DNA of 55,877 bases, from positions 1-55,877 of the IMG/VR virus record IMGVR_UViG_3300050132_000092; one strand, written 5' to 3'. The notes under the pieces were generated by a model, which was not told where the DNA came from, searched no databases, and saw only the letters and a program-made list of their open reading frames with translations. Below are positions 6,008 to 20,663 of this stretch, in pieces. The DNA comes from a virus (Duplodnaviria; Caudoviricetes). A program made the translations under genes and the position numbers. Each line of letters opens with the position of its first letter. Position 1 is the stretch's first letter.

Positions 6008-6493
6008 TCAAGGGTTTATTTGCGGTGTGGCTACGCGGTGTGCTGTCAGATGTCGTTGATGAATAAGGTGACACTGATATGTTTTTACGTGTTCGTCTGC
6101 TTTTTGCGCAGGTGGTCGGCCTGACGGCAGCTTTACAGAACGTGCTGCCGCCATAATACGATAAACTGATGCTACACCTATTCCGCAGACATCTGCTACG
6201 GCTTGATTGGTGCGACCTTCTGCTCTGAGTGCCATTACGCGGTCGGCTTGAGATAGTGCTGGTTTAGGTCTGTTGTCGTACACACCTGCTGCCTTGGCTT
6301 TAGCTATTCCTTCAAGTGACAGCGTTCTCATATTTATTCGTTTGATGCCGAATTCATGAACCCTCATATGACAAGGAATACAGATTGAAATGATATTGTT
6401 ACTCTCGTCGGTACCACCATGAACTTTTGGAATGACGTGATGAAGTTCCATTGGGTGCAGACCGCCACACAGGCAACAGAATGGTGTTATCAC
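6008..6493 (-). CDS. HNH endonuclease fused to a resolvase-type HTH
   Basis: CLCG..HHVIPKVHGG..NIISICIPCH..VH followed by EGIAKAKAAG...GIGVASVYRI. Confidence 0.75.
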   Translation of the reverse strand: MITPFCCLCGGLHPMELHHVIPKVHGGTDESNNIISICIPCHMRVHEFGIKRINMRTLSLEGIAKAKAAGVYDNRPKPALSQADRVMALRAEGRTNQAVADVCGIGVASVYRIMAAARSVKLPSGRPPAQKADEHVKTYQCHLIHQRHLTAHRVATPQINP

Positions 6494-9522: not shown

Positions 9523-9614
9523 CAGGCAAGGTGCCGGGCGGCTATAAGGTCGCCCGGCGTGGAGTGGTGGGCTAGGTAGTGCGGGGCGTGTGGCTGGCTG
9601 TCAGTATGCCTGAG

Positions 9615-9794
9615 TTATGATCCTTGATGTTGCTTCTGATACAACTCCAACCACGCAAAAGCCAAACCCGGCACCCTGCGTTCTCCGCCCTCCCAGTCCT
9701 GCCACGTTCGGTAAGGGGTGCCGGAAAGTTCTGCCGCTTTTGCCATTGATAGCCCTGCTAATTTGCGCTTTTCTCGGAGTGCTGCGCCGGTCAT
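9615..9794 (-). CDS. XRE-family HTH regulator (59 aa, not in the ORF track)
   Basis: MTGAALREKRKLAGLSMAKAAELSGTPYRTWQDWEGGERRVP; its TAA stop lies in the GTTA core. Confidence 0.85.
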   Translation of the reverse strand: MTGAALREKRKLAGLSMAKAAELSGTPYRTWQDWEGGERRVPGLAFAWLELYQKQHQGS

Positions 9795-9994
9795 TTGGCA
9801 CCAGCATTGTGCCTGGGGACAATAAAAAACCGTCTGCTATTTGGGTGTTTTTGCTTTTGCAACACACGATTGCAAACAGGACACACAACCGTTGCGGCTG
9901 TCATTTCAGGAGTGAACCCAAAGGGATTATCCCCATCGTAGTAGCAAGTATTACTGTGACTGCATTTTTCTGATTTCATCGGTGTTTTAGCCAT
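9791..9994 (-). CDS. small Cys-containing hypothetical protein
   Basis: MAKTPMK...CPVC; overlaps both neighbours; GGGGTGG SD-like sequence. Confidence 0.55.
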   Translation of the reverse strand: MAKTPMKSEKCSHSNTCYYDGDNPFGFTPEMTAATVVCPVCNRVLQKQKHPNSRRFFIVPRHNAGAK

Positions 9995-10197
9995 TTGTTC
10001 CACCCCTTTACAAATCCTGTAATTTGAGCCTGAGATGCTGACAAATACCAAGAGCGCAGTCCGTGGCCGTTACGGCAAAGGTCATCAAGTACCCTGTGTG
10101 CTGTCTCAGCGTTGCAGGCTCCAGGGTCAAGACCTATGTGCCTCATTTCGCCACGTGTTGCCGATATTGCTTGCTCAATCTTTGTCATTTCTCTCAC
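9976..10197 (-). CDS. hypothetical protein
   Basis: GAGGTG RBS downstream of the cassette promoter. Confidence 0.6.
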   Translation of the reverse strand: MREMTKIEQAISATRGEMRHIGLDPGACNAETAHRVLDDLCRNGHGLRSWYLSASQAQITGFVKGWNKWLKHR

Positions 10198-10209
10198 CTC
10201 TTAATTACT

Positions 10210-10260
10210 ACTATACACGCATTGCGTACCTTGTCAACATAAATAATGTGCATTGCGTAT
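10210..10260 (-). promoter_or_regulatory. cassette promoter with two operator-like palindromes
   Basis: TTGACA-16 bp-TATAGT; ACGCATTGCGT within the spacer and GTGCATTGCGTA upstream. Confidence 0.6.
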
Positions 10261-10282
10261 ATTTTTCTAACGGTGGCAAACT

Positions 10283-10345
10283 GATCATAACAAAACGTAG
10301 CAGCAGGCGATGAAGCCCGCTGCTGTCAGTATGCCTGAGTTTTGC
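10283..10345 (+). other. attC-like site (same family as 17420-17483)
   Basis: TAAC-AAAAC-GTAGCAGCAGGCGATGAAGCCCGCTGCTGT...GTT; 47 nt between AAC and GTT in both copies. Confidence 0.65.
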
Positions 10346-11230: not shown

Positions 11231-12154
11231 TTAGAGTGCTAGGGTGTCGTGCCATTGCGCTATAAAGCGGTTTATTTCTGCGGCGGTAAACGTGTGACAT
11301 CCAGCTTTAACAGTGCCGTCCTCGGCTATGCTATCCAGTATGAAGGCTCCCAGGTGGATCACATGGCCGTTGGTGTGGTAAGGTTCGCCGCGCCGTGACT
11401 GCCAGAATCGCAGTGCTTTAACGGCGTGATCAAGCGGGCACTCTGCACCTTGGCTGGTTAATATGAGGCCGTCGTGGATAGTTATATAGTCGGTTGCGGG
11501 CTGACCTGCTGACAGTTGATCCCATTCGCGTCGCTGGTAACTAGCAGGACACCTGCCTGCGCCGGTCGTCAACCAGATTTTAAACTGTTTGGCGTCGGCT
11601 TTCTGCTGTTTGAGTGCGGCGGCCTGGCGGGTGGCTTCCAGGCGTGCCCGCTCCGCTGCTTTACGGTCGGCGTACTCCGTGACGGTGGCAAGGTCGAGCG
11701 CGTATTCTGGCATGTCTGGCAGTTTGACGTTAAAGCGGGCGGCGTGGGTTTGGATGCGTTCACGCTCCTGGAGATAGGCGGCTATGGCGTCAAGTTTGGT
11801 CTGCTTGCGGGTCCTGGTGGCTGACATAGCGGCGTCAAGGGTCTGTATGGCTTCTCGTGCTGCCGGTATGGTTAGCGCCTCGTGTGTTGCTGCCGGGTTG
11901 CTGCCGGACCAGGAGAAAGCGGGTGTGCGGAATATCCGCTCGCGCTCATGGTTTACCGCCTGCCGTGCGTAGCTGAGGTGCCTGCCGGTACTCGGTGACA
12001 TATTATCTGAACTGATATAAATAACGTCGTCCAGGCGTGCGGCAATAGTGGTACTGTAACTGGTTAGTGTTACGCCGTCGGTTTTGAGATTGCTGCCTTT
12101 GGCGGGTGTTCCGTGTGCCCAAGAATGGGCTACTTGCTGATTGCTGACTGACAT
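11231..12154 (-). CDS. phage hypothetical protein
   Basis: Likely start MSVSNQQVAHSWA after CAGGAGG. Confidence 0.7.
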   Translation of the reverse strand: MSVSNQQVAHSWAHGTPAKGSNLKTDGVTLTSYSTTIAARLDDVIYISSDNMSPSTGRHLSYARQAVNHERERIFRTPAFSWSGSNPAATHEALTIPAAREAIQTLDAAMSATRTRKQTKLDAIAAYLQERERIQTHAARFNVKLPDMPEYALDLATVTEYADRKAAERARLEATRQAAALKQQKADAKQFKIWLTTGAGRCPASYQRREWDQLSAGQPATDYITIHDGLILTSQGAECPLDHAVKALRFWQSRRGEPYHTNGHVIHLGAFILDSIAEDGTVKAGCHTFTAAEINRFIAQWHDTLAL

Positions 12155-12254
12155 GGCGGTGTGCCTCCTGTCTGTTAGAGTGAAAGAATTATTACAGCGA
12201 CGATATAAAATGTTGCGACGGCTACAAGGGCAAATATAAGGGTGAAAAACCATT

Positions 12255-12968
12255 CTATGGTTGACACGGTTGCACCTCCAAACGGTCAAGATAATATTGC
12301 AACTCGTCTGCTAGCTGCTCGGTTGCGTACTCATAGCCGATAAAACACCAAACCTCGTCGCGTCCGTCGTCGTCAAGCGTCCAAGCGTCGCCGTCAAAGG
12401 TGTACGTCCAGCGGATTAGGCCGTAACATTCACCGTTGCACCATTTCTCATAATCGGATAATACAGCGGCGGCATAATTGCGGCGGCGTTCTGGTGGTAC
12501 GTCATCAGGTACGATATAATAGCCGTCTGCGGAGTCAATAGCATAGTCTGATACTGCGTCTGACGGCTTGCCGGGTTTCCGGCTGCTCTTCGTGTCACTT
12601 ACGGTAAATGGACCGGCTGACACACTGCATGATGCCGTACCGGGGCCGTGGTTTGATCCACAATATGATATTGTAAAAACTCGACCAAGCGCAGCACGGA
12701 TGATCCGTTTAAACTCTTCCGGGTCGGGTCGCTGTCCGTAGTGTACGTATGAGTGGTCAAACTGTATAAACTCGCCCTCGTTGTCGTCTAGCGGGTCGGT
12801 GCAGTCGTCATCCTGGCAAAGTGCCGTGATAAGTGCCCGCTTGCCGTCTTTGCTGAGGTAAAGCGCGGCGGTATTATCTAGCGTGCCGGATTCGTCGTTG
12901 AATGGCATTAGAAAGGTATGGCCGTCAATCTCTATGTCATATGTCCGGTGTATTCGTGTGGTGCTCAT
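12255..12968 (-). CDS. phage hypothetical protein
   Basis: 237-aa ORF with GAGGGGG RBS. Confidence 0.7.
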   Translation of the reverse strand: MSTTRIHRTYDIEIDGHTFLMPFNDESGTLDNTAALYLSKDGKRALITALCQDDDCTDPLDDNEGEFIQFDHSYVHYGQRPDPEEFKRIIRAALGRVFTISYCGSNHGPGTASCSVSAGPFTVSDTKSSRKPGKPSDAVSDYAIDSADGYYIVPDDVPPERRRNYAAAVLSDYEKWCNGECYGLIRWTYTFDGDAWTLDDDGRDEVWCFIGYEYATEQLADELQYYLDRLEVQPCQP

Positions 12969-13044
12969 AGCGTCCCCCTCGTGGCATGTGCCTGTCTGGT
13001 GGTGGCAATCGTTCTGCCGGTTGGTGTGGGTGTGTCGTTTACTC

Positions 13045-13227
13045 TCATTGTCTGACCTCCTGTGGTCTGGCTGCGTCTATCATTAATAGAAAAGTTTTAT
13101 GTCTGTCGCACTCGTCTAATGATCCTTTAAAGATTGGTTTAATATCGTTACCAATAAATACACCGTAGCCACTAAAAGGTGCCTGTAATGTTCCATATGT
13201 TTTGTAGGTGTCAATCTGATATTTCAT
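13045..13227 (-). CDS. hypothetical protein
   Basis: CAGGAGG RBS. Confidence 0.55.
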   Translation of the reverse strand: MKYQIDTYKTYGTLQAPFSGYGVFIGNDIKPIFKGSLDECDRHKTFLLMIDAARPQEVRQ

Positions 13228-13314
13228 GGTCTGGCCTCCTGGTATATCGGATTAATTGCTTGCTACAGTTTGGAGTCTACAGGGTTTTGATTTATTGTCA
13301 ACATAATAATCACA

Positions 13315-13569
13315 CTAGCGGTATTTTTCTTTATAGTCAACGAAGCAGACAATTATGCCGCCTTCCTCTTCGGGTAGTACCTTTATGATCCGCCCCTCGT
13401 ACTTAAAAGCGTACCCGCCAAAATTACCGAATGAGTATTGATATAACGGCGTCCTCATTTTGCAGTAACCCTCCGCGCCGTGATAAAGCAAAACTTTCTC
13501 CTGTTTGCCGTTTACCAGGTGTACGCATTTACTGCCTGAATTATTTAGATAATAAGTTCCGTTTCTCAT
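13315..13569 (-). CDS. hypothetical protein
   Basis: AAGGAGG RBS; first gene after a TTGACA-containing AT-rich segment. Confidence 0.6.
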   Translation of the reverse strand: MRNGTYYLNNSGSKCVHLVNGKQEKVLLYHGAEGYCKMRTPLYQYSFGNFGGYAFKYEGRIIKVLPEEEGGIIVCFVDYKEKYR

Positions 13570-13672
13570 TGTCTGGCCTCCTTTTATTTAGCCGATATGT
13601 CACAGTAAACTATATTTTGATTACTTGTCAATGATTATTTTGCACCTGACTATATTTTATTCTGACGCCGGT

Positions 13673-13837
13673 GGATCGTCCGGGTGGTGACGGGCGGATC
13701 GTCCAGGTGGTGACGGGTGGATCGTCCAGGTGGTGACGGGTGGATCGTCCGGGTGGTGACGGGGGCCGGATCGTCCAGGCGCTGACGGGGGCCGGATCGT
13801 CCAGGTGGTGACGGGCGGATCGTCCAGGTGGTGACGG
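13673..13837 (+). repeat. seven 23-26 bp iteron-like repeats GGATCGTCCRGGTGGTGACGG
   Basis: Directly visible; each unit contains GATC. Confidence 0.92.
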
Positions 13838-13956
13838 CTATAAAACCATATATACGGATTATTGAATGTCTAGCTGGTAGCTGGTAGCAGGCGGTCGAGC
13901 AGGTGTAGCCGCCCTGGCGTACACACAGGGCGGCTGGCAGATTTGCAGAATATCGG

Positions 13957-14085
13957 TTGGTCAGCTTTTTATAAAATGCGGTGGGACAATCGTGTGTGGC
14001 GGCTTGGTCAGGTTTTTATAAAATCAGTGTGGACATTTGCGTGCGGCGGCTTGGTCAGGTTTTTATAAAATACGGTGGGACAATC
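13957..14085 (+). repeat. three ~47-bp degenerate repeats with the TTTTATAAAA palindrome (fourth copy at ~14323-14357)
   Basis: TTGGTCAG.TTTTTATAAAAT...GTGGGACAATC recurs. Confidence 0.85.
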
Positions 14086-14333
14086 AGAACGGCAACTCGA
14101 CCGGTTTTCTAAAGCTCTGCACGTACTGGTCGTACATCTCCCGCGTTAATCTGCCGCCATTTACCCAGAACAGTGTGACGACGGTTGGTATGGTGAGCAA
14201 GCGGCCATGTGGAAGGATCGTCGGACTGACCCCATACCATCTCTCTGACTTCCTGCCACGAGTAGCCGGTACGGAATTGATTGTATGATATGGGAGCGGT
14301 GGTGGTCACGGGGGGGTGTCCTTTGGTCAACAT
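14084..14333 (-). pseudogene. probably frameshifted phage hypothetical gene
   Basis: Removing one base at ~14145 turns KWRQI-NAGD into KWRQIKREMYDQYV...ELPF-stop. Confidence 0.4.
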
Positions 14334-14363
14334 TTAGTAAAATGTGGTGGGACAATCATTAGG

Positions 14364-14528
14364 TTATGTCACTCTGCAACAGGTTCGTAAGTTGCCGCTC
14401 TGCGATTTCCTGATTGCACCCTTGTTGCCGATCTTGATCTTGCCCAGCTCGACAAGGCCGGGGCAGAGATTCTTGATCATCATGGCGTTGCGCTGTCTTG
14501 GTTGATACTGTTGGATCTCGTTGCTCAT
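14364..14528 (-). pseudogene. short or truncated phage gene fragment
   Basis: AAGGAG RBS; MIKNLCPGLVELGKIKIG looks like the N-terminus of a longer phage protein and ends abruptly. Confidence 0.35.
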
Positions 14529-14620
14529 GCTGTGCTCTCCTTTTTGGTTTATGCTGCTTGTAATTTTATTATTCAATCTCTTAAAAGATTACCCCTGAAA
14601 AATAGATAGTCAAGACGGCT

Positions 14621-14641
14621 ATCTAATTGATGTTATAAAGC
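14621..14641 (+). other. attI-like simple site at the head of the cassette array
   Basis: ATCTAAT-TGAT-GTTATAA; no hairpin upstream; GTTATAAAGC matches GCTTTATAAC at 15161. Confidence 0.45.
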
Positions 14642-15147
14642 TAAATTTTTACTGTGCCAATTTGCGAAAATGCTTTTTTGAATCCTGCCACGTCTGGCCC
14701 GAGATAAGTCACGACACTGCCCTTGCTAACGTCCTTTGTCTTTGTCCCGTCCGGCTTGTAGTAGTTGGTTCTGCCGTGGATGTAGCATTGCGGGAAAGCA
14801 AGCAATGGCCTGAACCATTCCTCAGAAGTGGCGGCATAGGTAATGCAGCAAGCGGCTTCTACGTTCCGGCTCATGGCGTACTCTCTGACCAGCTTTTTGA
14901 TAAACGCTGCATTGTTTGCCCTGCTGAATGGGTGATTCATCCATACCCGTCCGTACCACGGCTTAGACAGACCATCGTCAGCAGCGGTGAAAAACTCCGC
15001 AGCTTTTACAGTCTGGTTTGCAATCACACTCGATGCAGGGTCAAGGTCGATAAATCCCAATACTTGCCGCGCAGCCTCTATGATTTCAGGTGGTGTGTAA
15101 TATTCCACATTCCCGCTGTCTTGATTGATTTGCTGACATTTGTTCAT
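14641..15147 (-). CDS. phage DNA N6-adenine methyltransferase (cassette 1)
   Basis: EYYTP, IDLDPAS and VWMNHPF (NPPF-like) motifs. Confidence 0.85.
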   Translation of the reverse strand: MNKCQQINQDSGNVEYYTPPEIIEAARQVLGFIDLDPASSVIANQTVKAAEFFTAADDGLSKPWYGRVWMNHPFSRANNAAFIKKLVREYAMSRNVEAACCITYAATSEEWFRPLLAFPQCYIHGRTNYYKPDGTKTKDVSKGSVVTYLGPDVAGFKKAFSQIGTVKI

Positions 15148-15160
15148 AAATTCTCCTTAC

Positions 15161-15233
15161 GCTTTATAACCATCGGCTCGACCAGACCGCCGAAAACCAC
15201 GGCGAACTGGTCAGCCTCAAGCCGTTAGATTAC
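15161..15233 (+). other. canonical-looking attC site
   Basis: R'' TTATAAC, 5-nt spacer, L'' GCT(C)GACC, CGCCG/CGGCG stem, L' GGTCAGC, 8-nt spacer, R' GTTAGAT; extra base at L'' position 4. Confidence 0.82.
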
Positions 15234-15619
15234 TCAACCCACTCGCCTGCCTCTTTATCGTTCATCATGCCATCCAACTGTTCCCTGCTAATTTGATCTG
15301 TAGCCGGTATTTTCTGAATCAAAAGCCGAATCAACTCATATAGATTGTGCTGGTACGGTTCTATGCCTAAAGCGTCACAGCTGATATTTTCCAGACCGGC
15401 TATATTCACCCTGACAGCATCGTAAAGATTGAAATATTCGTTGTATTTTTTGGTCATTTCAACCAACTCTTCCTTCGGTCCAGGCGTCCCTTCATGTCTG
15501 GCGCATGACACATAATGCTCCAGTAAATCAAATGCTGTGGTTGTCGGATAAATCCCGTCTACTGGGTTATCAAGCATTTGACTGATAATTTCACATATTG
15601 CTGTTCTGTCTTTTTCCAT
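15230..15619 (-). CDS. hypothetical protein (cassette 2)
   Basis: AAGGAG RBS; stop adjacent to the R' core. Confidence 0.7.
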   Translation of the reverse strand: MEKDRTAICEIISQMLDNPVDGIYPTTTAFDLLEHYVSCARHEGTPGPKEELVEMTKKYNEYFNLYDAVRVNIAGLENISCDALGIEPYQHNLYELIRLLIQKIPATDQISREQLDGMMNDKEAGEWVE

Positions 15620-15665
15620 GGTGTTTCTCCTTTTTCTTAGTTTGTTTGCATATATGACAGTTTCC

Positions 15666-15689
15666 GTAATCTAACCAGATGTTAGATTG
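15666..15689 (+). other. collapsed attC / simple site ATCTAAC-CAGAT-GTTAGAT
   Basis: Perfect 7-bp inverted repeat with a 5-bp spacer; each half matches its own cassette's other end. Confidence 0.65.
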
Positions 15690-15936
15690 ATCTGCGACGT
15701 TCAAGCTTTTGCGAACGGGTAAACAGGCTTTTATTCTTGCGCCGCTCTTTGCGAGTCTCCCCCGCGAATTGCGAGAGCTTCCCGCCAGAAGTAAGCGACA
15801 CCATAGCCTCGTCCGCTCCGTTGAGCTTTTTTCCAGCAGCCGGGATATACTCGTCTGTGAGCCGCTGGTACTTTGACCGCTCCAGTACATCAACCATTTC
15901 CAAGTTTCTTACCAAATGTCCGGTATCACAGTTCAT
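15682..15936 (-). CDS. hypothetical protein (cassette 3)
   Basis: GGAGG RBS; TAA lies in the GTTA core. Confidence 0.65.
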   Translation of the reverse strand: MNCDTGHLVRNLEMVDVLERSKYQRLTDEYIPAAGKKLNGADEAMVSLTSGGKLSQFAGETRKERRKNKSLFTRSQKLERRRSI

Positions 15937-16102
15937 CTCTTGCCTCCATAATCATCACTCTGAATTTTTTACCGATGTAGTTAGCGCCGACTGAAACATA
16001 AAACATTCCGTATCTGTTGCCATACTCGCCAGCGGGGCGGCACTCAACAGTTTTCACATACTTGAACTGCTCGTAGAACTCTTGGCACCGTTTACATTTC
16101 AT
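15926..16102 (-). CDS. small hypothetical protein (58 aa, cassette 3, not in the ORF track)
   Basis: AAAGGA RBS; MKCKRCQEF...; overlaps the next gene. Confidence 0.55.
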   Translation of the reverse strand: MKCKRCQEFYEQFKYVKTVECRPAGEYGNRYGMFYVSVGANYIGKKFRVMIMEARDEL

Positions 16103-16118
16103 GGCTCGTATCCTTTCG

Positions 16119-16184
16119 CAATCTAACCAGCTTTTTCGACACAGGCGGCAACAGGCCGCCGCTGTTCAGCTAAATACGTTATGC
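16119..16184 (+). other. attC-like site (hybrid arms)
   Basis: ATCTAAC...GGCGGC/GCCGCC stem...GTTATGC. Confidence 0.65.
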
Positions 16185-16448
16185 TTACTTGCTCCACTCT
16201 TTCCTCGTACAAGGGCAAAGTCTTGCCACCGGACAATCATCGCAATAGCCAGGGTTAGTGTCTTTGTCGAGAATGCATCCCCAAGGGCGAGGCGTCTTGT
16301 CATCGCTCCAGTCGTGTGCCACCGGAATATGATTTGCCGCCAGAGTACAGATCTTTTGCAGTTCCTCTTTTTCGGAAGTGATAAATTGATGCTTCTTCGC
16401 TTTGATGTCGTTGTATTCCGCCTCGGTCAACAGATATTGCATAACCAT
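16185..16448 (-). CDS. Cys-rich hypothetical protein (cassette 4)
   Basis: PWGCIL...YCDDCPV..LCP; RBS lies inside the attC. Confidence 0.7.
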   Translation of the reverse strand: MVMQYLLTEAEYNDIKAKKHQFITSEKEELQKICTLAANHIPVAHDWSDDKTPRPWGCILDKDTNPGYCDDCPVARLCPCTRKEWSK

Positions 16449-16495
16449 CTCCTTCGAGCCGTCAAGCGGCTCAACTCGTACCCCGTTATATTTCT
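16439..16495 (+). other. short attC site
   Basis: R'' GCATAAC, L'' CTT(C)GAGC, L' GCTCAAC, R' GTTATAT. Confidence 0.72.
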
Positions 16496-16707
16496 ACCCG
16501 CGTCACCTTGAATGAACAGCTACAGATAGACATGCCCTTTTCATGTGCAAGCTCTTTGACTTTGAGTTTGCGGCCACTTTCAACAATTATTTCCCGCTCT
16601 GCGTAATGAGTTCTTGCCTGATAATTCATTTTCATCCACTCCGATACAGCCTCAAGGGCGCAGTAATTCGGAGTATGCTTGTCAGTTTTTATTTTAATAG
16701 TTGGCAC
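16486..16707 (-). CDS. hypothetical protein (cassette 5)
   Basis: AAGGGGG RBS, GTG start, TAA in the GTTA core. Confidence 0.6.
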   Translation of the reverse strand: MPTIKIKTDKHTPNYCALEAVSEWMKMNYQARTHYAEREIIVESGRKLKVKELAHEKGMSICSCSFKVTRVEI

Positions 16708-16729
16708 GATTCCCCCTTAATAATCCGAC

Positions 16730-16793
16730 ACATAACCATAACGTTCCAGAGGGATGCCGTCAAGCGGCTCAACTCGTACCCCGTTATATTTCT
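16730..16793 (+). other. attC-like site whose right 38 bp duplicate 16458-16495
   Basis: ACATAAC...GCCGTCAAGCGGCTCAACTCGTACCCCGTTATATTTCT. Confidence 0.65.
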
Positions 16794-17278
16794 GATTCCA
16801 CTATTTCGAATACTGCCTTGATTGCTTCCCGCGCTGTTGCTGCTGTGCCGGATTTCGACCAGATAGCAATGCTGATCATTTCAATGCATTCCTTTGCAGC
16901 CTGTTTTCGTGCTGCATTGATTGCCTGCCGTATTTCTACCTCCACGCAATCCAGAGGGTCGCCACTATCACAACCGGAAGAATCCGCACCGTACTCAGTG
17001 TGCAACCATTCCAAACGCTCACACCATCGATTTTGCTCATCATCTTCGCATTGGCCGCAACTTTGGTTTTCCTTCAATCGCTCGTTTTCTGTTTGAATCT
17101 GTATCACTTGCGTTTCCAAAAACACGATCCTGTCAGCGGCCTGCAAAAGTAATGGCTCACCTTCGTTTAATGCAGCCTGTAGCAGTGCGTTCTTTTGTTG
17201 CAAGTTGATCACTTGTGCCTGGATATGGCACGTCATAGTACCGCCAAAGGGCTTGACTGCTTCACATATTAAGCTCAT
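16784..17278 (-). CDS. coiled-coil hypothetical protein (cassette 6)
   Basis: GGAGG RBS; TAA in the GTTA core; DSSGCDSGDPLD motif. Confidence 0.7.
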   Translation of the reverse strand: MSLICEAVKPFGGTMTCHIQAQVINLQQKNALLQAALNEGEPLLLQAADRIVFLETQVIQIQTENERLKENQSCGQCEDDEQNRWCERLEWLHTEYGADSSGCDSGDPLDCVEVEIRQAINAARKQAAKECIEMISIAIWSKSGTAATAREAIKAVFEIVESEI

Positions 17279-17406
17279 TCGTTTTCATCCTCCCAGTTGT
17301 CACACTCTAGACATGTCAGTTGATAGCCACTGCCGACATTGTTTATGTCAACATCGTCGCTTCCGCATTTGAGACAAATAACTTGGAATTTTTTGAAGTA
17401 GACCAT
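17275..17406 (-). CDS. 43-aa zinc-ribbon protein (cassette 6, not in the ORF track)
   Basis: CLKCGS...CLEC; AAGGGGG RBS; ATGA overlap with the next gene. Confidence 0.6.
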   Translation of the reverse strand: MVYFKKFQVICLKCGSDDVDINNVGSGYQLTCLECDNWEDENE

Positions 17407-17419
17407 TGTTCCCCCTTAC

Positions 17420-17483
17420 GAAATATAACAAATCGTAGCAGCAGGCGATGAAGCCCGCTGCTGTTCAGCTAAATACGTTCTAC
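17420..17483 (+). other. terminal attC-like site
   Basis: GAAATATAAC matches GTTATATTTC at 16783; hairpin; ends GTTCTAC. Confidence 0.68.
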
Positions 17484-17657
17484 TGCCCTTAGATTGTTAA
17501 TCCTGTTTGCGATATTACACGTCGGCTCCGGCACTGACAGCTTCTCGGCGCAGGATTTATGCAAAATTCGCAGATGGCCATCTACCGTCACCTCTGCAAA
17601 GTGATTACCCCTTAACTGCTTGCCACAACTCCAGCAGAATCTCACGTGGGGATTCAT
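17469..17657 (-). CDS. small zinc-binding hypothetical protein
   Basis: CWSCG...HKSC; ATGA overlap. Confidence 0.6.
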   Translation of the reverse strand: MNPHVRFCWSCGKQLRGNHFAEVTVDGHLRILHKSCAEKLSVPEPTCNIANRINNLRAVERI

Positions 17658-17881
17658 AACTTACACCCCATCAGCACCAGTTCGCGCATAAAGTCACCGA
17701 TACTGTCACAGCCGCTGGTCTGGTATGCCGCGCTGACCGCAGCCAGTTCTCCGTCACTGTAGCGTTGCATCAGCCGGTGACGGCGGCTGTCGGGCTTACT
17801 GGAACCTACCGGCCTACCGGCTCCTGGACGTGTGCCACCTCGGTGTGGCGGTGTGCTGTCATACTGTGTAGCGATGGTCAT
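17654..17881 (-). CDS. small DNA-binding protein (AT-hook-like GGxRPGAGRP plus RHH-like region)
   Basis: RGGTRPGAGRP motif; AGGAGG RBS. Confidence 0.6.
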   Translation of the reverse strand: MTIATQYDSTPPHRGGTRPGAGRPVGSSKPDSRRHRLMQRYSDGELAAVSAAYQTSGCDSIGDFMRELVLMGCKL

Positions 17882-17918
17882 CTGGTAGCCTCCTAGCAGT
17901 TAGTTAGTTGTTCTGATG

Positions 17919-17965
17919 TGTAGTGTACAGTAATTTGATATGTTGTCAATAGTTATTTTGCACCC
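17919..17965 (-). promoter_or_regulatory. leftward promoter reading into the cassette array
   Basis: TTGACA-16 bp-TACACT; the context GGTGCAAAATAA..ATTGACA also occurs at ~13626-13646. Confidence 0.55.
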
Positions 17966-17970
17966 GCCGG

Positions 17971-20322
17971 TCAGCCCGTACCACTCTGACCCCACGCCTG
18001 ACCGGCGACACTGGCACCAGTCTGAGCGTCCAGATACCGGCGCGTTATATCCGACGCTGACGTAACCTGTGCCAGCAGACCGTCACTACGCACGTACAGT
18101 CGAGGTTTACCGCCTTCCGGCAGACTATTGTGAACACGACCATCCGGCAACGCCTGAGTCAGCACGTAGCCGAGCGATTTCATAATCTCCTTGTATTTAT
18201 TCGGGCTGATGTTCTTGCGACCGTCGAACAGCCGTGACAGCGCCGAGCTGCTGACGAATCCTCCGGCGAATCCTGCCGATCCTTGCGCGATCATCTCCAC
18301 GATAGTCTGCTCGACTACACCCAGACTGGCAACCATCGCCTCGTCGGTGGAACTGGTGCGTGGCGCTCGCTGACAACTGGTGGCAGGGTTTAAAGCGTCC
18401 GGTATGGCGTAGCCCCGCAAATAATGGTTCACCACGGCGTTGCCGCCCGCAAACAGCCAGTCGTACAGTTCGGGAAAATATGAACCGCTCATGCCGTCGC
18501 GCTCCAGGTCGCCCACTTCCTGCTGCCCTGTATAGAATATAGCGTAGCGGCGGTCGGTGCCGGTCTTGCGAATCGCGTCTTTATGGTTGCTGAACAGAAT
18601 AAAATTAGCGCGGTTATCGCCGGTAATCTGGTTGGCTCCCTTGCCCTGAAAGCCGATCCGTTTATTCGTGATCATCGGTTTGAGTGCTTCGATCAGGCTG
18701 CTGCGGTCGTTGGTGTAGACCTCTTCGATGCCGATCAGCAATTTGCCCTGTAACCACGAGTTGAATTTATTGTCGATGTCCTGCGCGTTCGGCAGATCGA
18801 CGTAACGATCACCGATACAATGCGACAGCACTGTGCTTAACATCGACTTACCGTTGCCCTCCATGCCGATCAGTAACGGTGCCCATTGAAACTTGACGCC
18901 CGGATACTGCACGACCGCCGCCATGTAAGCCAGCATGATCGCGTAGTCGTCGGGGTCAGGTAGCATCTGAGCGAGGTGTGACAGGAACCGTGACGGGTCG
19001 CCGGGTTTAATTTCGGTAATCACCGGCATGTAAGTATTAACCATGCGCCGTCCCTGTTCAGTTATCACCGCGCCAGGAGCGCATTCCGGTCTGAAACAGG
19101 TGCTAGCTACTTTGGGAAAGGTGAAGGTGCGCGACTCGGTAAACGCTTCCCAGGCGTTCTTGGTGCCTTTACTGTTGCCCTCTTCGACCATGAACTCATA
19201 GCCGCCATACATCACCCTGAAGCGCCCTTGGTCAAGAATCTCGCCGGTCGGACAGAATACACCGTGGTCAGATGTCACGTAGACGCAACCACGGAAATGC
19301 TGTTGCTGGCCGGTAATGGTCAATATCTGCCCGCCGCCCCGGTATTCGCCTGCCGGTTCATCGGGACGGAGCGCCGGTGCTTCGGTTGGCGGTAAGACGG
19401 TCGGGCCGGTAGCCGGTTCGTCAGCCAGGTGTTCACCGTAGACCGCCGTGCTGGACTTGCCGAATTTACTGATGGTGAGCTGGCCGTAAGTGCGACCGCC
19501 ACCCGCCGACCGGTCCCATTTGTCACGCATCAGGCCCGACTGGCGGAACAGCCGGTCGATGCGGTCACAGTCTCTGCCGGTCCAGAAGCTGAGGTGGCTG
19601 ACCAGCGCGGCGTCGGCTTCGGATTGGCCGTCAGGATCGCAGATACCAGCCCACAGATCGGCAAGCGGAATGGCTGCTGAGAACGGATTGCCACGACTGG
19701 TTAACATGCGTGTTATGAGGGTCGGATCGTCGAGGGGGCCGTGGTAGGCGGGGTCATGTGTGGTAGTCCAGTCTGAAGGCTGTACGGAACTGCCGACTGG
19801 AAAATAGTTTTCTGTGAGCCAATTAATCTGTTGGTCGGCTATGTGCGACATACTGCCGGTGCCGTTGACGAGCGCACAGAACCTTTTACTGGTATAATAT
19901 TCTAACCCCGAATTGTGAATATCGCGGGTGCGGTGTTCTGACGGCGGTGTGGACAGACTGCCGATGATGTGAAGGCCATTACCGGACGAACTGGTTTCAA
20001 TGTAGCATCCGGCAAAATACCGGCAGAGCTGCGTGGCGAGCGGCGACCAGGTGCCGTCAAGCTGGAGGGCGTTGTCGATGTCTACAAAGAATAGATTGTC
20101 TTGCTCGGTGAACGTCAGGCCGACACCATGACCGATACCTGACGCGACCACAGCCTGCGCGTCGGTGTACGACATCCAGATAGCAGGATCGTGGGCGTCA
20201 TGTGCCTTGCCGGTGAGCGGGTGGATAGTTATTTTATCGGTCTTGCCTGGTCGGGTGGCTGAGGGCCGGATGACATAGACGACGTATTGCCGGTGTTGCG
20301 ACACTATGCGCCCGCCACTCAC
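17971..20322 (-). CDS. primase-polymerase (NrS-1-like) fused to an SF3/DUF5906 helicase
   Basis: FVDID, ETSSSGNGLHI, DRLFRQSGLMRDKW, Walker A GMEGNGKS. Confidence 0.88.
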   Translation of the reverse strand: MSGGRIVSQHRQYVVYVIRPSATRPGKTDKITIHPLTGKAHDAHDPAIWMSYTDAQAVVASGIGHGVGLTFTEQDNLFFVDIDNALQLDGTWSPLATQLCRYFAGCYIETSSSGNGLHIIGSLSTPPSEHRTRDIHNSGLEYYTSKRFCALVNGTGSMSHIADQQINWLTENYFPVGSSVQPSDWTTTHDPAYHGPLDDPTLITRMLTSRGNPFSAAIPLADLWAGICDPDGQSEADAALVSHLSFWTGRDCDRIDRLFRQSGLMRDKWDRSAGGGRTYGQLTISKFGKSSTAVYGEHLADEPATGPTVLPPTEAPALRPDEPAGEYRGGGQILTITGQQQHFRGCVYVTSDHGVFCPTGEILDQGRFRVMYGGYEFMVEEGNSKGTKNAWEAFTESRTFTFPKVASTCFRPECAPGAVITEQGRRMVNTYMPVITEIKPGDPSRFLSHLAQMLPDPDDYAIMLAYMAAVVQYPGVKFQWAPLLIGMEGNGKSMLSTVLSHCIGDRYVDLPNAQDIDNKFNSWLQGKLLIGIEEVYTNDRSSLIEALKPMITNKRIGFQGKGANQITGDNRANFILFSNHKDAIRKTGTDRRYAIFYTGQQEVGDLERDGMSGSYFPELYDWLFAGGNAVVNHYLRGYAIPDALNPATSCQRAPRTSSTDEAMVASLGVVEQTIVEMIAQGSAGFAGGFVSSSALSRLFDGRKNISPNKYKEIMKSLGYVLTQALPDGRVHNSLPEGGKPRLYVRSDGLLAQVTSASDITRRYLDAQTGASVAGQAWGQSGTG

Positions 20323-20663
20323 GCCTCACCGCCGACCAGCGTGAGAGCCGCCTGCTGTCTGAGTGTAATCGGTGCTTCCAGTGCGGCAGGGTGGCGGTAG
20401 GCCAGACCCTCGGCGACCACACTGAGTACGCAGGTGCGTACCGCTTCCTCCATGACGGCGTTCAGCAGGTTGTCTGCCGACTGATAGTAATGACAGACCA
20501 GAGCGTATGACACACCGGCTGACCGCGCTACGGCGGTCAATGTGATACTATCGTACCCGTCAGCGGTAGCCAGTGCAACGGCGGCGTTCAGGATGGCGGC
20601 TTTGCGTTCGGCGGGTGTGGTGCCGTAACGCGAGGGGCGGGTGGTCGGTGTGTCTGTGGTCAT
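20319..20663 (-). CDS. TetR-like HTH protein
   Basis: RKAAILNAA...ITLTAVARSAGVSYALVCHYY. Confidence 0.8.
   Translation of the reverse strand: MTTDTPTTRPSRYGTTPAERKAAILNAAVALATADGYDSITLTAVARSAGVSYALVCHYYQSADNLLNAVMEEAVRTCVLSVVAEGLAYRHPAALEAPITLRQQAALTLVGGEA

What the first reader, a model, noticed from the sequence alone, without database searches (positions are those of the whole stretch)
14621..17483. Phage-borne array of integron-like cassettes with inverted genes and no integrase
Seen: six consecutive units each start with GTT and end in ...AAC, followed by a hairpin site (one collapsed). In five units the two ends are exact reverse complements: GTTATAAAGC/GCTTTATAAC (14632/15161), GTTAGATTAC/GTAATCTAAC (15224/15666), GTTAGATTG/CAATCTAAC (15681/16119), GTTATGC/GCATAAC (16178/16439) and GTTATATTTC/GAAATATAAC (16783/17420). 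The sites at 15161 and 16439 have L''/L' boxes with the extra base on the + strand. Known: R''/R' complementarity within one cassette is the signature of integron cassettes that moved as circles, and cassette ORFs normally lie on the attC top strand. Here all eight ORFs lie on the bottom strand, look like phage accessory genes (Dam-like MTase, zinc ribbons), and no IntI is encoded. Inference: this is a phage accessory-gene shuffling system that borrows a host integron integrase in trans, or draws on a phage-specific pool of reverse cassettes.
Basis: partly seen in the sequence, partly recalled or inferred. Interest (0 to 1): 0.9.

Follow-up and report, generated by a model that had tools for sequence, protein, structure and literature searches.

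The report
Backward integron gene cassettes in phage
A complete phage genome carries a row of six swappable integron-type gene cassettes and the docking site for new ones, but no integrase, and every gene points the opposite way from cassettes in bacterial integrons.

Summary
Six units at 14632-17483 are flanked by GTT...AAC inverted repeats. Five pairs are exact (7-10 nt), hairpin sites lie between the units, and all eight ORFs are on the minus strand.

It is a genuine integron-type array:
- The sites belong to an attC family that lies beside true integron integrases in other phage contigs and in Geobacteraceae genomes.
- The left end, 14565-14637, is 90% identical to the attI of an IntI-bearing Geobacteraceae prophage.
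- In an independent metagenome, cassettes D and E occur more than 99% identical but reordered, with breaks at the GTT boxes.

The + strand is the attC top strand, so the genes are reversed and each attC lies 5' of its gene. Four lines support this: the extrahelical base, G skew, attI/intI geometry, and the D attC travelling with D.

No IntI is encoded. An integrase acting in trans is inferred.

Phage CALINs are already published (Qi et al. 2023). I did not find the all-reversed, phage-embedded arrangement in print. Earlier notes of this scan describe it on other DNA.

The parts
14565..14634 (+). attI-like site. It ends at the insertion point G|TT (14632-14634). It holds a hairpin (14603-14625) and, on the minus strand, a TTGACT-16-TAATCT promoter-like element facing leftwards.
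   Evidence: 90.4% identical over 73 nt to L106 729-801. That stretch lies between the start of a Geobacteraceae prophage intI (709, minus strand) and its first cassette GTT (797). The promoter-like element is my reading of the sequence; the scan did not list it.
14633..15224 (-). Cassette A. Dam-like N6-adenine DNA methyltransferase ORF 14641-15147. R'' box 15161-15170. attC body 15171-15223 (UCS catcg, L'' GCTcGACCAG, L' CTGGTCAGC).
   Evidence: Pfam PF05869 39.1 bits (cut-off 28.1) and phrog_111 at 8e-38. The strict L-box/extrahelical-base template hits on the + strand. The R''-UCS-L''/L'-UCS parts match the L103 chromosomal attC. A freshwater-sediment run (X4) holds 14631-14754 and 14792-15171 (0 and 5 differences) in another context.
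15225..15681 (-). Cassette B. ORF 15230-15619 (129 aa, no family). R'' 15666-15675. Its attC is collapsed to 5 nt (15676-15680).
   Evidence: 10-nt exact terminal inverted repeat. No Pfam, PHROG or NCBIfam match. Only one partial relative among 5.8 billion proteins.
15682..16178 (-). Cassette C. Two ORFs, 15682-15936 and 15926-16102. R'' 16119-16127. attC 16128-16177.
   Evidence: 9-nt exact inverted repeat. The attC is 95.7% identical over 47 nt to an attC of the IntI-bearing phage contig L024/L025.
16179..16485 (-). Cassette D. ORF 16185-16442/16448 (phrog_18059). R'' 16439-16445. attC 16446-16484.
   Evidence: In run X3 a 3,733-nt contig holds 16178-16489 with 1 difference. The piece includes the attC on D's right but not the one on its left, and has other sequence on both sides.
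16486..16783 (-). Cassette E. ORF 16486-16707. R'' ACATAAC/CCATAAC at 16730-16742. attC to 16782, whose right 38 nt repeat the D attC exactly.
   Evidence: Direct repeat D1. The same X3 contig holds 16485-16759 with 2 differences, placed 392 nt before cassette D, which is the reverse of the window's order.
16784..17477 (-). Cassette F. ORFs 16784-17278 and 17275-17406 (zinc-ribbon-like, 43 aa). R'' 17420-17429. attC 17430-17476.
   Evidence: 10-nt exact inverted repeat. A homologue of the 43-aa ORF (85.7% over 35 aa) lies in the array beside intI in L051.
17477..17483 (+). R' box GTTCTAC of the last attC. It overlaps the last codons of backbone gene 17469-17657, whose stop codon lies inside the F attC.
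   Evidence: Read from the sequence and ORF list.
9614..10344 (-). Isolated seventh unit. GTTATGATC...GATCATAAC, then a hairpin 97.5% identical over 40 nt to the F attC, then GTT. ORFs are on the minus strand. It is flanked by the 17-nt direct repeat GTCAGTATGCCTGAGTT.

Best explanation
The region is an integron-type cassette array in a complete tailed-phage genome, probably of a Geobacteraceae host. It comprises an attI site, six cassettes (A-F) and their attC sites, but no integrase: a CALIN that keeps its attI.

The + strand is the attC top strand. Every gene therefore lies on the recombinogenic bottom strand, with its attC 5' of the gene rather than 3' of it.

Shown here:
- The sites are members of an attC family used by true integron integrases.
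- The polarity is as stated.
- Whole cassettes occur elsewhere nearly identical but in another order, with breaks at the GTT core.

Inferred:
- Cassettes are cut out and put in by an IntI supplied in trans. The donor could be a co-resident prophage or co-infecting phage of the same family (L106/L024/L027/L051 type) or the host's chromosomal integron.
- That IntI would act on folded minus strands at AA|C, and new cassettes would enter at G|TT 14632.
- The genes are expressed by read-through of the phage's leftward operon coming from the primase side. Each uses its own Shine-Dalgarno sequence, not a Pc promoter at attI.
- In the IntI-bearing relatives the same transcription would run through the array into intI.
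For: (1) Family membership.
- The motif AACGGCTTGAGG..CGATGGTTA of site A-B occurs in 20 viral stretches and 10 genome stretches. Seven of the 10 are in Geobacteraceae, Trichlorobacter or 'Deltaproteobacteria' MAGs.
- It lies beside proteins that pass the integron-integrase model TIGR02249 (cut-off 265 bits): L024 390, L027 410, L051 395, L103 336. L106 scores 199.5 bits for the 236 aa held in the locus.
- Thirteen 51-nt members fold to one hairpin. [quoted passage not shown]

(2) attI. Window 14565-14637 is 90% identical to the intI-to-first-cassette spacer of L106.

(3) Polarity.
- The coding strand of a class 1 aac(6')-Ib cassette reads AAC-5 nt-CATcGAGGGG...CCCCTCATG-6 nt-GTT.
- The window + strand reads AAC-catcg-GCTcGACCAG...CTGGTCAGC-ctcaagcc-GTT.
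- Nivina et al. 2016 place the extrahelical bases opposite the AAC on the bottom strand and report G enrichment of that strand (PMC5027507, passages).
- All 5 of 5 full-size window sites have negative GC skew on the + strand.
- The same template falls on the ORF strand in canonical arrays: Vibrio phage 37 against 3, Shewanella phage 14 against 8, and class 1 0 against 3, where one of the 3 is the true attC.
- It falls on the non-ORF strand opposite intI in L025 (5 against 1), L027 (3 against 1) and L051 (6 against 1).

(4) Mobility.
- One contig of run X3 (another study) holds cassette E, then 392 nt, then cassette D, with 2 and 1 differences.
- Its breaks are at 16485 and at 16178/16489.
- D carries the attC on its right, not the one on its left.

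(5) Phage status. Portal, major head protein, DNA polymerase, helicase, direct terminal repeats and 100% estimated completeness.
Against: - No IntI is in the genome, and no recombination was observed.
- Only 1 of 5 window sites meets the strict L-box/extrahelical-base template. That template has a background of about 12 hits per strand in the 56-kb window.
- Only 2 of 7 R' boxes fit GTTRRRY; the rest share only GTT(A).
- Folding z-scores are modest for three of the five sites (-1.1 to -1.6).
- A MAFFT alignment of 19 heterogeneous sites gave no consensus structure.
- The attC covariance model of IntegronFinder could not be run.
- The shared 43-aa gene in L051 has different boxes and neighbours, with homology ending inside or at the ORF. 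So ordinary phage mosaicism also acts here.
- The exact 38-nt half-site duplication looks like homologous recombination or gene conversion, not a G|TT crossover.
- The reordering rests on a single contig of one run.
- No close relative of the phage backbone was found: primase identity is at most 47%. Gain or loss in one lineage could therefore not be seen.
Confidence: 0.78

Rival explanations
1. The sites are conserved intergenic hairpins at which general (homologous or relaxed) phage recombination shuffles genes, as proposed for promoter/stem-loop cassettes of T4-type phages (recalled from memory, not seen in a call). No integron integrase is involved in this phage; any likeness to attC is ancestral or relic.
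For: - No IntI in the genome.
- Exact 38-nt and 25-40-nt repeats between sites, which could serve homologous exchange.
- The 43-aa gene is shared with L051 without shared boxes.
Against: - Breaks in the X3 contig fall at the 5-nt GTTAT core, not inside the longer shared stretches.
- The terminal 7-10-nt inverted repeats of each unit are what circular cassettes cut at G|TT leave behind; homologous exchange does not predict them.
- An attI 90% identical to one beside a real intI is retained.
- The hairpin family shows compensatory changes and a fixed bulge position.
Confidence: 0.12
2. It is an ordinary, canonically oriented cassette array. The minus strand would be the attC top strand and each gene would be followed by its own attC, so the 'inversion' is a strand-assignment error.
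For: - The R boxes read alike on both strands, so the terminal inverted repeats fit either orientation.
- Only one window site meets the strict template.
- Top and bottom strand folding energies differ by 2.2 kcal/mol or less, and for 2 of the 5 full-size sites the + strand is the more stable.
Against: - Position of the extrahelical base in site A-B and in the 13-member family.
- G skew in 5 of 5 sites.
- attI on the left, with intI beyond it in L106, L024, L027 and L051.
- Cassette D travels with the attC that lies 5' of its gene.
Confidence: 0.05
3. The repeats are chance or purely regulatory palindromes (terminators or operators) with no role in recombination.
For: - One site (17437-17462, minus strand) scores as terminator-like.
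- Counts of promoter-like and terminator-like sites in the region are at shuffle level.
Against: - Shuffle controls.
- Homology to sites beside integron integrases.
- Cassette reordering in another metagenome.
Confidence: 0.03

Closest known systems
CALINs and integrons in bacteriophage genomes (Qi, Rajabal, Ghaly, Tetu, Gillings 2023, Front Microbiol, PMC9892861; abstract and results section read, supplements closed)
   Same: - attC clusters without an integrase in virulent and temperate phages.
- DNA methyltransferase cassettes among the cargo.
- The idea that phages tap the cassette pool. That paper showed phage attCs recombining with IntI1.
   Different: - The complete phage integrons described there are captured pieces of host or class 1 integrons. 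The Vibrio phage record of that paper and a Shewanella M16-3 phage record have cassette genes divergent from intI.
[quoted passage not shown]
- Here all genes are reversed relative to the attCs, an attI is retained, and related phages carry intI inside a phage operon.
- Their Supplementary Table S1 (17 CALINs) could not be read and might hold similar cases.
Classical integrons (class 1; sedentary chromosomal integrons), including the Geobacteraceae chromosomal integron in L103
   Same: - R''/R' cores AAC/GTT.
- A 5-nt spacer and an L box with one extrahelical base.
- A variable hairpin top and G-rich bottom strand.
- attI next to the 5' end of intI in relatives.
- Terminal complementarity of each cassette.
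- The R''-UCS-L''/L'-UCS parts of L103's attC are nearly letter-for-letter those of window site A-B.
   Different: - Genes lie on the bottom strand with the attC 5' of the gene.
- There is no Pc logic: transcription must enter from the far end of the array.
- The ORFs of cassettes C, E and F use the core TAA of TAA|C as their stop codon.
- No intI in this genome.
Inverted integron-integrase group (Treponema and others), defined by Cury et al. [quoted passage not shown]
   Same: intI and the cassette genes point the same way.
   Different: In L024, L027, L051 and L106 intI is opposite to the attC top strand, as in classical integrons. It is the genes that are flipped, not the integrase.
Inverted cassettes of the Vibrio cholerae chromosomal integron and promoter/stem-loop cassettes of T4-type phages (both recalled from memory, not seen in any call)
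   Same: Individual reversed cassettes exist in bacterial integrons. Hairpin-bounded gene modules are shuffled in T4-type phages.
   Different: Here the whole array (8 of 8 ORFs, plus the arrays of four relatives) is reversed, and the sites are attC family members rather than promoter/terminator modules.

Membership tests
Integron cassette array (attC sites) | Each site is bounded by an inverse core ending in AAC and a core starting with GTT (RYYYAAC / GTTRRRY). | tested here: met
   TAAC and GTT are invariant in 19 of 19 aligned sites from the window, L024, L027 and L051. The full RRRY consensus holds in only 2 of 7 window R' boxes.
Integron cassette array (attC sites) | L''/L' stem with an extrahelical base on the arm opposite the AAC of the bottom strand, plus an unpaired central spacer. 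| tested here: inconclusive
   Strict template met by 1 of 5 full-size window sites (A-B), with none on the other strand; the whole-window background is about 12 hits per strand. It is met in the consensus of 13 family members and matches a class 1 attC.
Integron cassette array (attC sites) | Bottom strand enriched in G (Nivina et al. 2016). | tested here: met
   GC skew of the + strand is -0.07 to -0.36 in 5 of 5 full-size sites.
Integron cassette array (attC sites) | The first bases of a cassette are complementary to its own R'', the trace of a circular intermediate cut at G|TT. | tested here: met
   Exact for 5 of 6 units (7-10 nt) and 6 of 7 nt for unit E.
Integron cassette array (attC sites) | Cassettes move as units, with breaks at G|TT. 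| tested here: met
   Cassettes D and E are reordered in one X3 contig, with breaks at 16178, 16485 and 16489. This rests on a single contig; no circular form was seen.
Integron cassette array (attC sites) | Score above threshold with the attC covariance model (IntegronFinder / HattCI). | not testable with these tools
   Rfam 15 gave no match in 13300-17900. The IntegronFinder model is not on hand.
Integron cassette array (attC sites) | Recombination by an integron integrase. | not testable with these tools
   Needs an attC x attI assay.
Complete integron | intI (integron integrase) next to attI. | tested here: not met
   0 candidates for TIGR02249 in the whole record. An attI homologue is present, and intI is present in relatives.
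Canonical cassette layout | The ORF lies on the attC top strand, followed by its attC, and is expressed from Pc at attI. | tested here: not met
   8 of 8 ORFs are on the bottom strand. Cassette D carries the attC 5' of its gene.
CALIN (cluster of attC sites lacking an integron integrase) | Two or more attC sites on one strand within 4 kb, with no intI nearby. | tested here: met
   Five full-size sites and one collapsed site within 2.9 kb, and no intI in the genome.
Inverted integron-integrase group | [quoted passage not shown] | tested here: not met
   In the IntI-bearing relatives the attC top strand is opposite to intI. The definition is from Cury et al. 2016.

The most novel reading that the evidence does not exclude
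Phages of Geobacteraceae may run their own branch of the integron system, a mirror-image cassette pool.

- In this pool the attC precedes the gene and the core TAA|C often serves as the stop codon.
- The cassettes would be exchanged among unrelated phages: this DNA-polymerase phage, a phage with Mu Gam-like and GemA-like genes, and primase-helicase prophages.
- The platform sits inside a phage operon, so the newest cassette is the last gene before intI and transcription of the array runs into intI.
- The same attC family and the same kind of integrase serve normally oriented cassettes in the host chromosome.
- Host and phage would then share one recombination machinery but keep two pools that are each silent in the other's platform.
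Probability: 0.5. Interest if true: 0.8.

Novelty: new variant of a known kind. Interest (0 to 1): 0.65.

Why it matters
Integrons are known as bacterial gene-capture devices, and phages were only recently shown to carry pieces of them.

An array whose genes are all reversed, kept together with its attI in a complete phage, suggests a second, phage-side economy of cassettes: anti-restriction methylases and small accessory proteins. This rests on the reversed layout recurring beside intI in unrelated phages of the same host group.

It would explain how hyperplastic accessory regions of these phages are built. It shows that cassette orientation is not fixed by the recombination chemistry but by where transcription comes from. 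It also makes a clear, testable prediction: an IntI from one phage or prophage mobilises cassettes of another.

For this window alone the gain is moderate. Phage CALINs are published, and this scan has noted the same arrangement on other DNA.

Tried and rejected
- Near-identity searches of 13500-18500 against GenBank phages and E. coli genomes found nothing.
- Primase relatives in viral and metagenome contigs are distant (36-47%) and show no tiled arrays. Gain or loss within one backbone could not be tested.
- The second site pattern had no viral match.
- A MAFFT alignment of 19 sites gave no consensus structure. I therefore built no covariance model.
- The greedy ORF-strand survey of 50 IntI loci was too noisy for a count: it misjudged L027. 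I use only its merged template counts.
- Some of those loci seem to have arrays downstream of intI instead (L039, L045, L052, L065). Not followed.
- Rfam gave no match.
- Promoter and terminator scans were at chance level.
- Cassette B has only one partial relative.
- Cassettes B and D have no close viral relatives.
- Cassette D has 82 relatives, but their contexts could not be fetched.
- The Nemergut et al. 2008 passages did not define the inverted group.
- Literature searches for phage integrons or reversed cassettes found only Qi et al. 2023 as relevant. Subscription journals and the supplements of Qi et al. were not visible.
- Loose ends at 17425 and 17464 in runs X1 and X2 first looked like array variants. 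They are the second copy of the hairpin at 10287-10326 in the same genome.
- Parts of the stretch without cover in X2-X4 say nothing.

Full report
**What is there.** The window is a whole virus record of 55,877 bp with direct terminal repeats and an estimated completeness of 100. It encodes a portal protein, a major head protein, a DNA polymerase, a helicase and a terminase-like protein.

Between 14632 and 17483 lie eight minus-strand ORFs in six units. Each unit begins with GTT and ends with AAC on the + strand. The sixth unit (E) matches in 6 of 7 positions.

Between the units lie spacers of 39-53 nt that can form hairpins. One spacer (B-C) is reduced to 5 nt. Two pairs of sites share their right halves: 38 nt are identical at 16458 and 16756, and 33 nt are 88% identical at 16153 and 17452.

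In 200 dinucleotide shuffles of the window, a chain of three tiled pairs of 9 nt or more never occurred. Five such pairs within 3.1 kb occurred once.

**Links to real integrons.**

- A 20-nt piece of the C-D site occurs in one other viral contig, L024.
  - The site is 95.7% identical over 47 nt.
  - It lies in an array of six units of the same build, next to a 321-aa protein that scores 390 bits on the integron-integrase model TIGR02249, cut-off 265.
  - A Mu Gam-like gene lies upstream of the array and a GemA-like gene (my reading; phrog_286, unknown function) follows intI.
- Two further IntI-bearing viral contigs have the same layout: L027 (410 bits) and L051 (395 bits).
- The motif of site A-B read on the minus strand is AACGGCTTGAGG...CGATGGTTA.
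  - It occurs in 20 viral stretches and in 10 stretches of species-representative genomes.
  - Five of the 10 are Geobacteraceae or Trichlorobacter MAGs and two are 'Deltaproteobacteria' MAGs.
- One of these, L106, is a prophage-like stretch: primase, helicase, minor tail protein, then two cassettes, then intI, all on one strand.
  - The 73 nt between its intI start and its first cassette are 90% identical to window 14565-14637.
  - The left end of the window's array is therefore an attI. The integrase gene that should follow it is replaced by an unrelated small ORF.
- In L103, a 127-kb Geobacteraceae contig, an IntI (336 bits) is followed by an attC whose R''-spacer-L box parts are almost letter for letter those of window site A-B. 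There the following ORFs are on the attC top strand, as in classical integrons.

**Which strand is which.** The R boxes read alike on both strands, so the terminal repeats alone do not tell whether the genes are reversed. Four independent lines do.

1. Extrahelical base.
   - On the coding strand of a class 1 aac(6')-Ib cassette the attC reads GCCTAAC, 5 nt, CATcGAGGGG ... CCCCTCATG, 6 nt, GTTAGAT. The extra base lies on the arm next to the AAC.
   - Nivina et al. 2016 state that on the bottom strand the extrahelical bases lie on the arm opposite the AAC triplet (PMC5027507, passages).
   - Window site A-B has this top-strand form on the + strand.
   - In 13 short family members the consensus fold read from AACGGCTTGAGG has its single bulge on the 3' arm, the bottom-strand form. 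Five of its 14 pairs change on both sides.
2. G enrichment. All five full-size sites have negative GC skew on the + strand. This is the published bias for the top strand.
3. Geometry beside intI.
   - A strict template (AAC, 4-7 nt, 3 bp, one extra base, 3 bp ... partner, 4-10 nt, GTT) falls on the ORF strand opposite intI in known arrays. In the Vibrio phage record the count is 37 against 3.
   - In the Shewanella phage record it is 14 against 8, and in class 1 it includes the true attC.
   - In L025, L027 and L051 it also falls opposite intI (5:1, 3:1 and 6:1 after merging overlaps), but there the ORFs run with intI.
   - In the window alone this test is weak: 1 against 0, with a background of about 12 per strand in 56 kb.
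4. Cassette boundaries, described in the next section.

**Mobility.** One run holds 99% of the sampled words of the array and may be the source sample. Seven others hold less. Contigs of four runs were laid on 11500-20500.

- X3 is a peat metagenome of another study.
  - One 3,733-nt contig (depth 10.5) holds 16485-16759 (cassette E, 2 differences), then 392 other letters, then 16178-16489 (cassette D, 1 difference).
  - This is the opposite order from the window.
  - The pieces start at the G of the GTT boxes, and the D piece ends after GTTAT. The sequence outside them is different.
- The D piece includes the attC to the right of gene D and excludes the one to its left. The attC that lies 5' of the gene in its reading direction therefore belongs to the cassette.
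- X4 is a freshwater sediment run. Short contigs hold the methyltransferase cassette from 14631 (0 differences) to 15171 (5 differences), with other sequence to the left of 14631.
- X2 holds pieces identical to the window, so the same phage is present there at low depth.
- X1 has branches at 14391 and at 16490 (after GTTATA). They lead into sequence that is not in this genome.
- All of this comes from contigs. The reordering rests on one contig.

**Results against, or complicating.**

- The 43-aa zinc-ribbon-like gene of cassette F has an 86% identical homologue in the L051 array. There it has another box, another upstream region and another downstream gene, and the homology ends within or at the ORF.
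- The 38-nt half-site duplication spans the supposed crossover point.
- Both facts point to homologous exchange acting alongside any site-specific reaction.
- Only 2 of 7 R' boxes fit GTTRRRY.
- Three of five sites fold no better than shuffles.
- No integrase is present, and none was tested.

**How it most likely works.** I take the array to be an integrase-less derivative of the phage-embedded integrons seen in L106, L024, L027 and L051.

- Shown: family membership of the sites, the attI homology, the polarity, and cassette-level reordering elsewhere.
- Inferred:
  - An IntI made by a co-resident prophage, a co-infecting phage or the host's chromosomal integron folds the minus strand of the attCs and cuts at AA|C.
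  - It inserts new cassettes at G|TT 14632.
  - The methyltransferase cassette next to attI would then be the latest arrival.
- Expression:
  - Because the genes lie on the bottom strand, a promoter at attI cannot express them.
  - They have their own Shine-Dalgarno sequences and must be read from upstream, on the primase side. A promoter-like site lies at 17949-17922.
  - In the relatives that transcription would run on into intI.
- Packing:
  - In cassettes C, E and F the stop codon is the core TAA of TAA|C.
  - In A, B and D it lies within 10 nt of the end.
  - The backbone gene 17469-17657 ends on a TAG inside the F attC.
- The Dam-like methylase (Pfam 39.1 bits; phrog_111; below the NCBIfam cut-off) fits an anti-restriction role. 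The other seven products have no named function.

**Comparison and novelty.**

- Qi et al. 2023 (PMC9892861; abstract and results read) reported 3 complete integrons, one In0 and 17 CALINs among 10,705 phage genomes.
  - These included methyltransferase cassettes.
  - They showed IntI1 recombining 5 of 6 phage attCs.
- The two of their complete-integron phages that I looked at are the Vibrio phage record of their Table 1 and a Shewanella M16-3 phage record. Both have the classical divergent layout.
- Cury et al. 2016 define the inverted-integrase group by intI lying on the attC strand. That is not the case here.
- My searches found no description of arrays in which all genes are reversed, or of intI embedded in a phage operon. 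Subscription journals and the supplements of Qi et al. were out of reach.
- Earlier notes of this scan describe the same arrangement in other Geobacter-type phages (e1-5984890, e1-5984891, e1-6083666). They agree with what I found. They are not independent evidence, because I reached the same points by my own calls.
- This window adds three things: the attI homology to an IntI-bearing prophage, the contrast with a canonical chromosomal attC of the same family, and a reordered cassette pair in an unrelated sample.
- I rate it a new variant of a known kind, with interest 0.65.

Noticed in passing
window 9614-10344: A seventh, isolated unit of the same build lies 4.3 kb from the array. It runs GTTATGATC ... 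GATCATAAC, then a hairpin 97.5% identical over 40 nt to the F attC, then GTT. It carries two or three minus-strand ORFs, one of them HTH-like by eye. It is flanked by the 17-nt direct repeat GTCAGTATGCCTGAGTT, so a half-site precedes it.
   Followed up: partly
window 13673-13837 and 13957-14085: Two tandem arrays (23 nt x 6.9 copies; 47 nt x 2.7 copies) lie in an ORF-poor stretch just left of the array. They may be iterons of a replication origin.
   Followed up: no
window 15682-15684, 16486-16488, 16784-16786: In cassettes C, E and F the stop codon is the conserved core TAA of the bottom-strand R' box (TAA|C), so the ORF runs to the last base of the cassette. This may explain why the boxes here are GTTA rather than GTTR.
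   Followed up: partly
window 17469-17483: Backbone gene 17469-17657 crosses the last recombination point and stops on a TAG inside the F attC. Loss or exchange of cassette F would change its last residues.
   Followed up: no
L099 (KX853513, Virus Rctr41k) 4680-5678: A GenBank phage record annotated 'xerD integrase-like' encodes a protein that passes the integron-integrase model (383 bits, cut-off 265). All annotated upstream genes run in the same direction as it. It is not among the four records in Table 1 of Qi et al. 2023.
   Followed up: partly
L039, L045, L052, L065 (IntI-bearing viral contigs): In these loci the attC-template hits lie downstream of intI on the intI strand (6:0, 3:1, 4:1, 3:1). 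This would be the inverted-integrase layout, so viral contigs seem to hold several integron geometries.
   Followed up: no
L027 6071-6199: An ORF (6116-6361) starts inside a long attC-like site and reads across the next GTT box. A cassette gene is apparently extended at its 5' end by attC sequence.
   Followed up: no
window 14391 (run X1): In the probable source sample a contig joins the window sequence at 14391 from a different left-hand sequence that is absent from this genome. This may be a relative with another gene, conceivably intI, left of the attI.
   Followed up: partly
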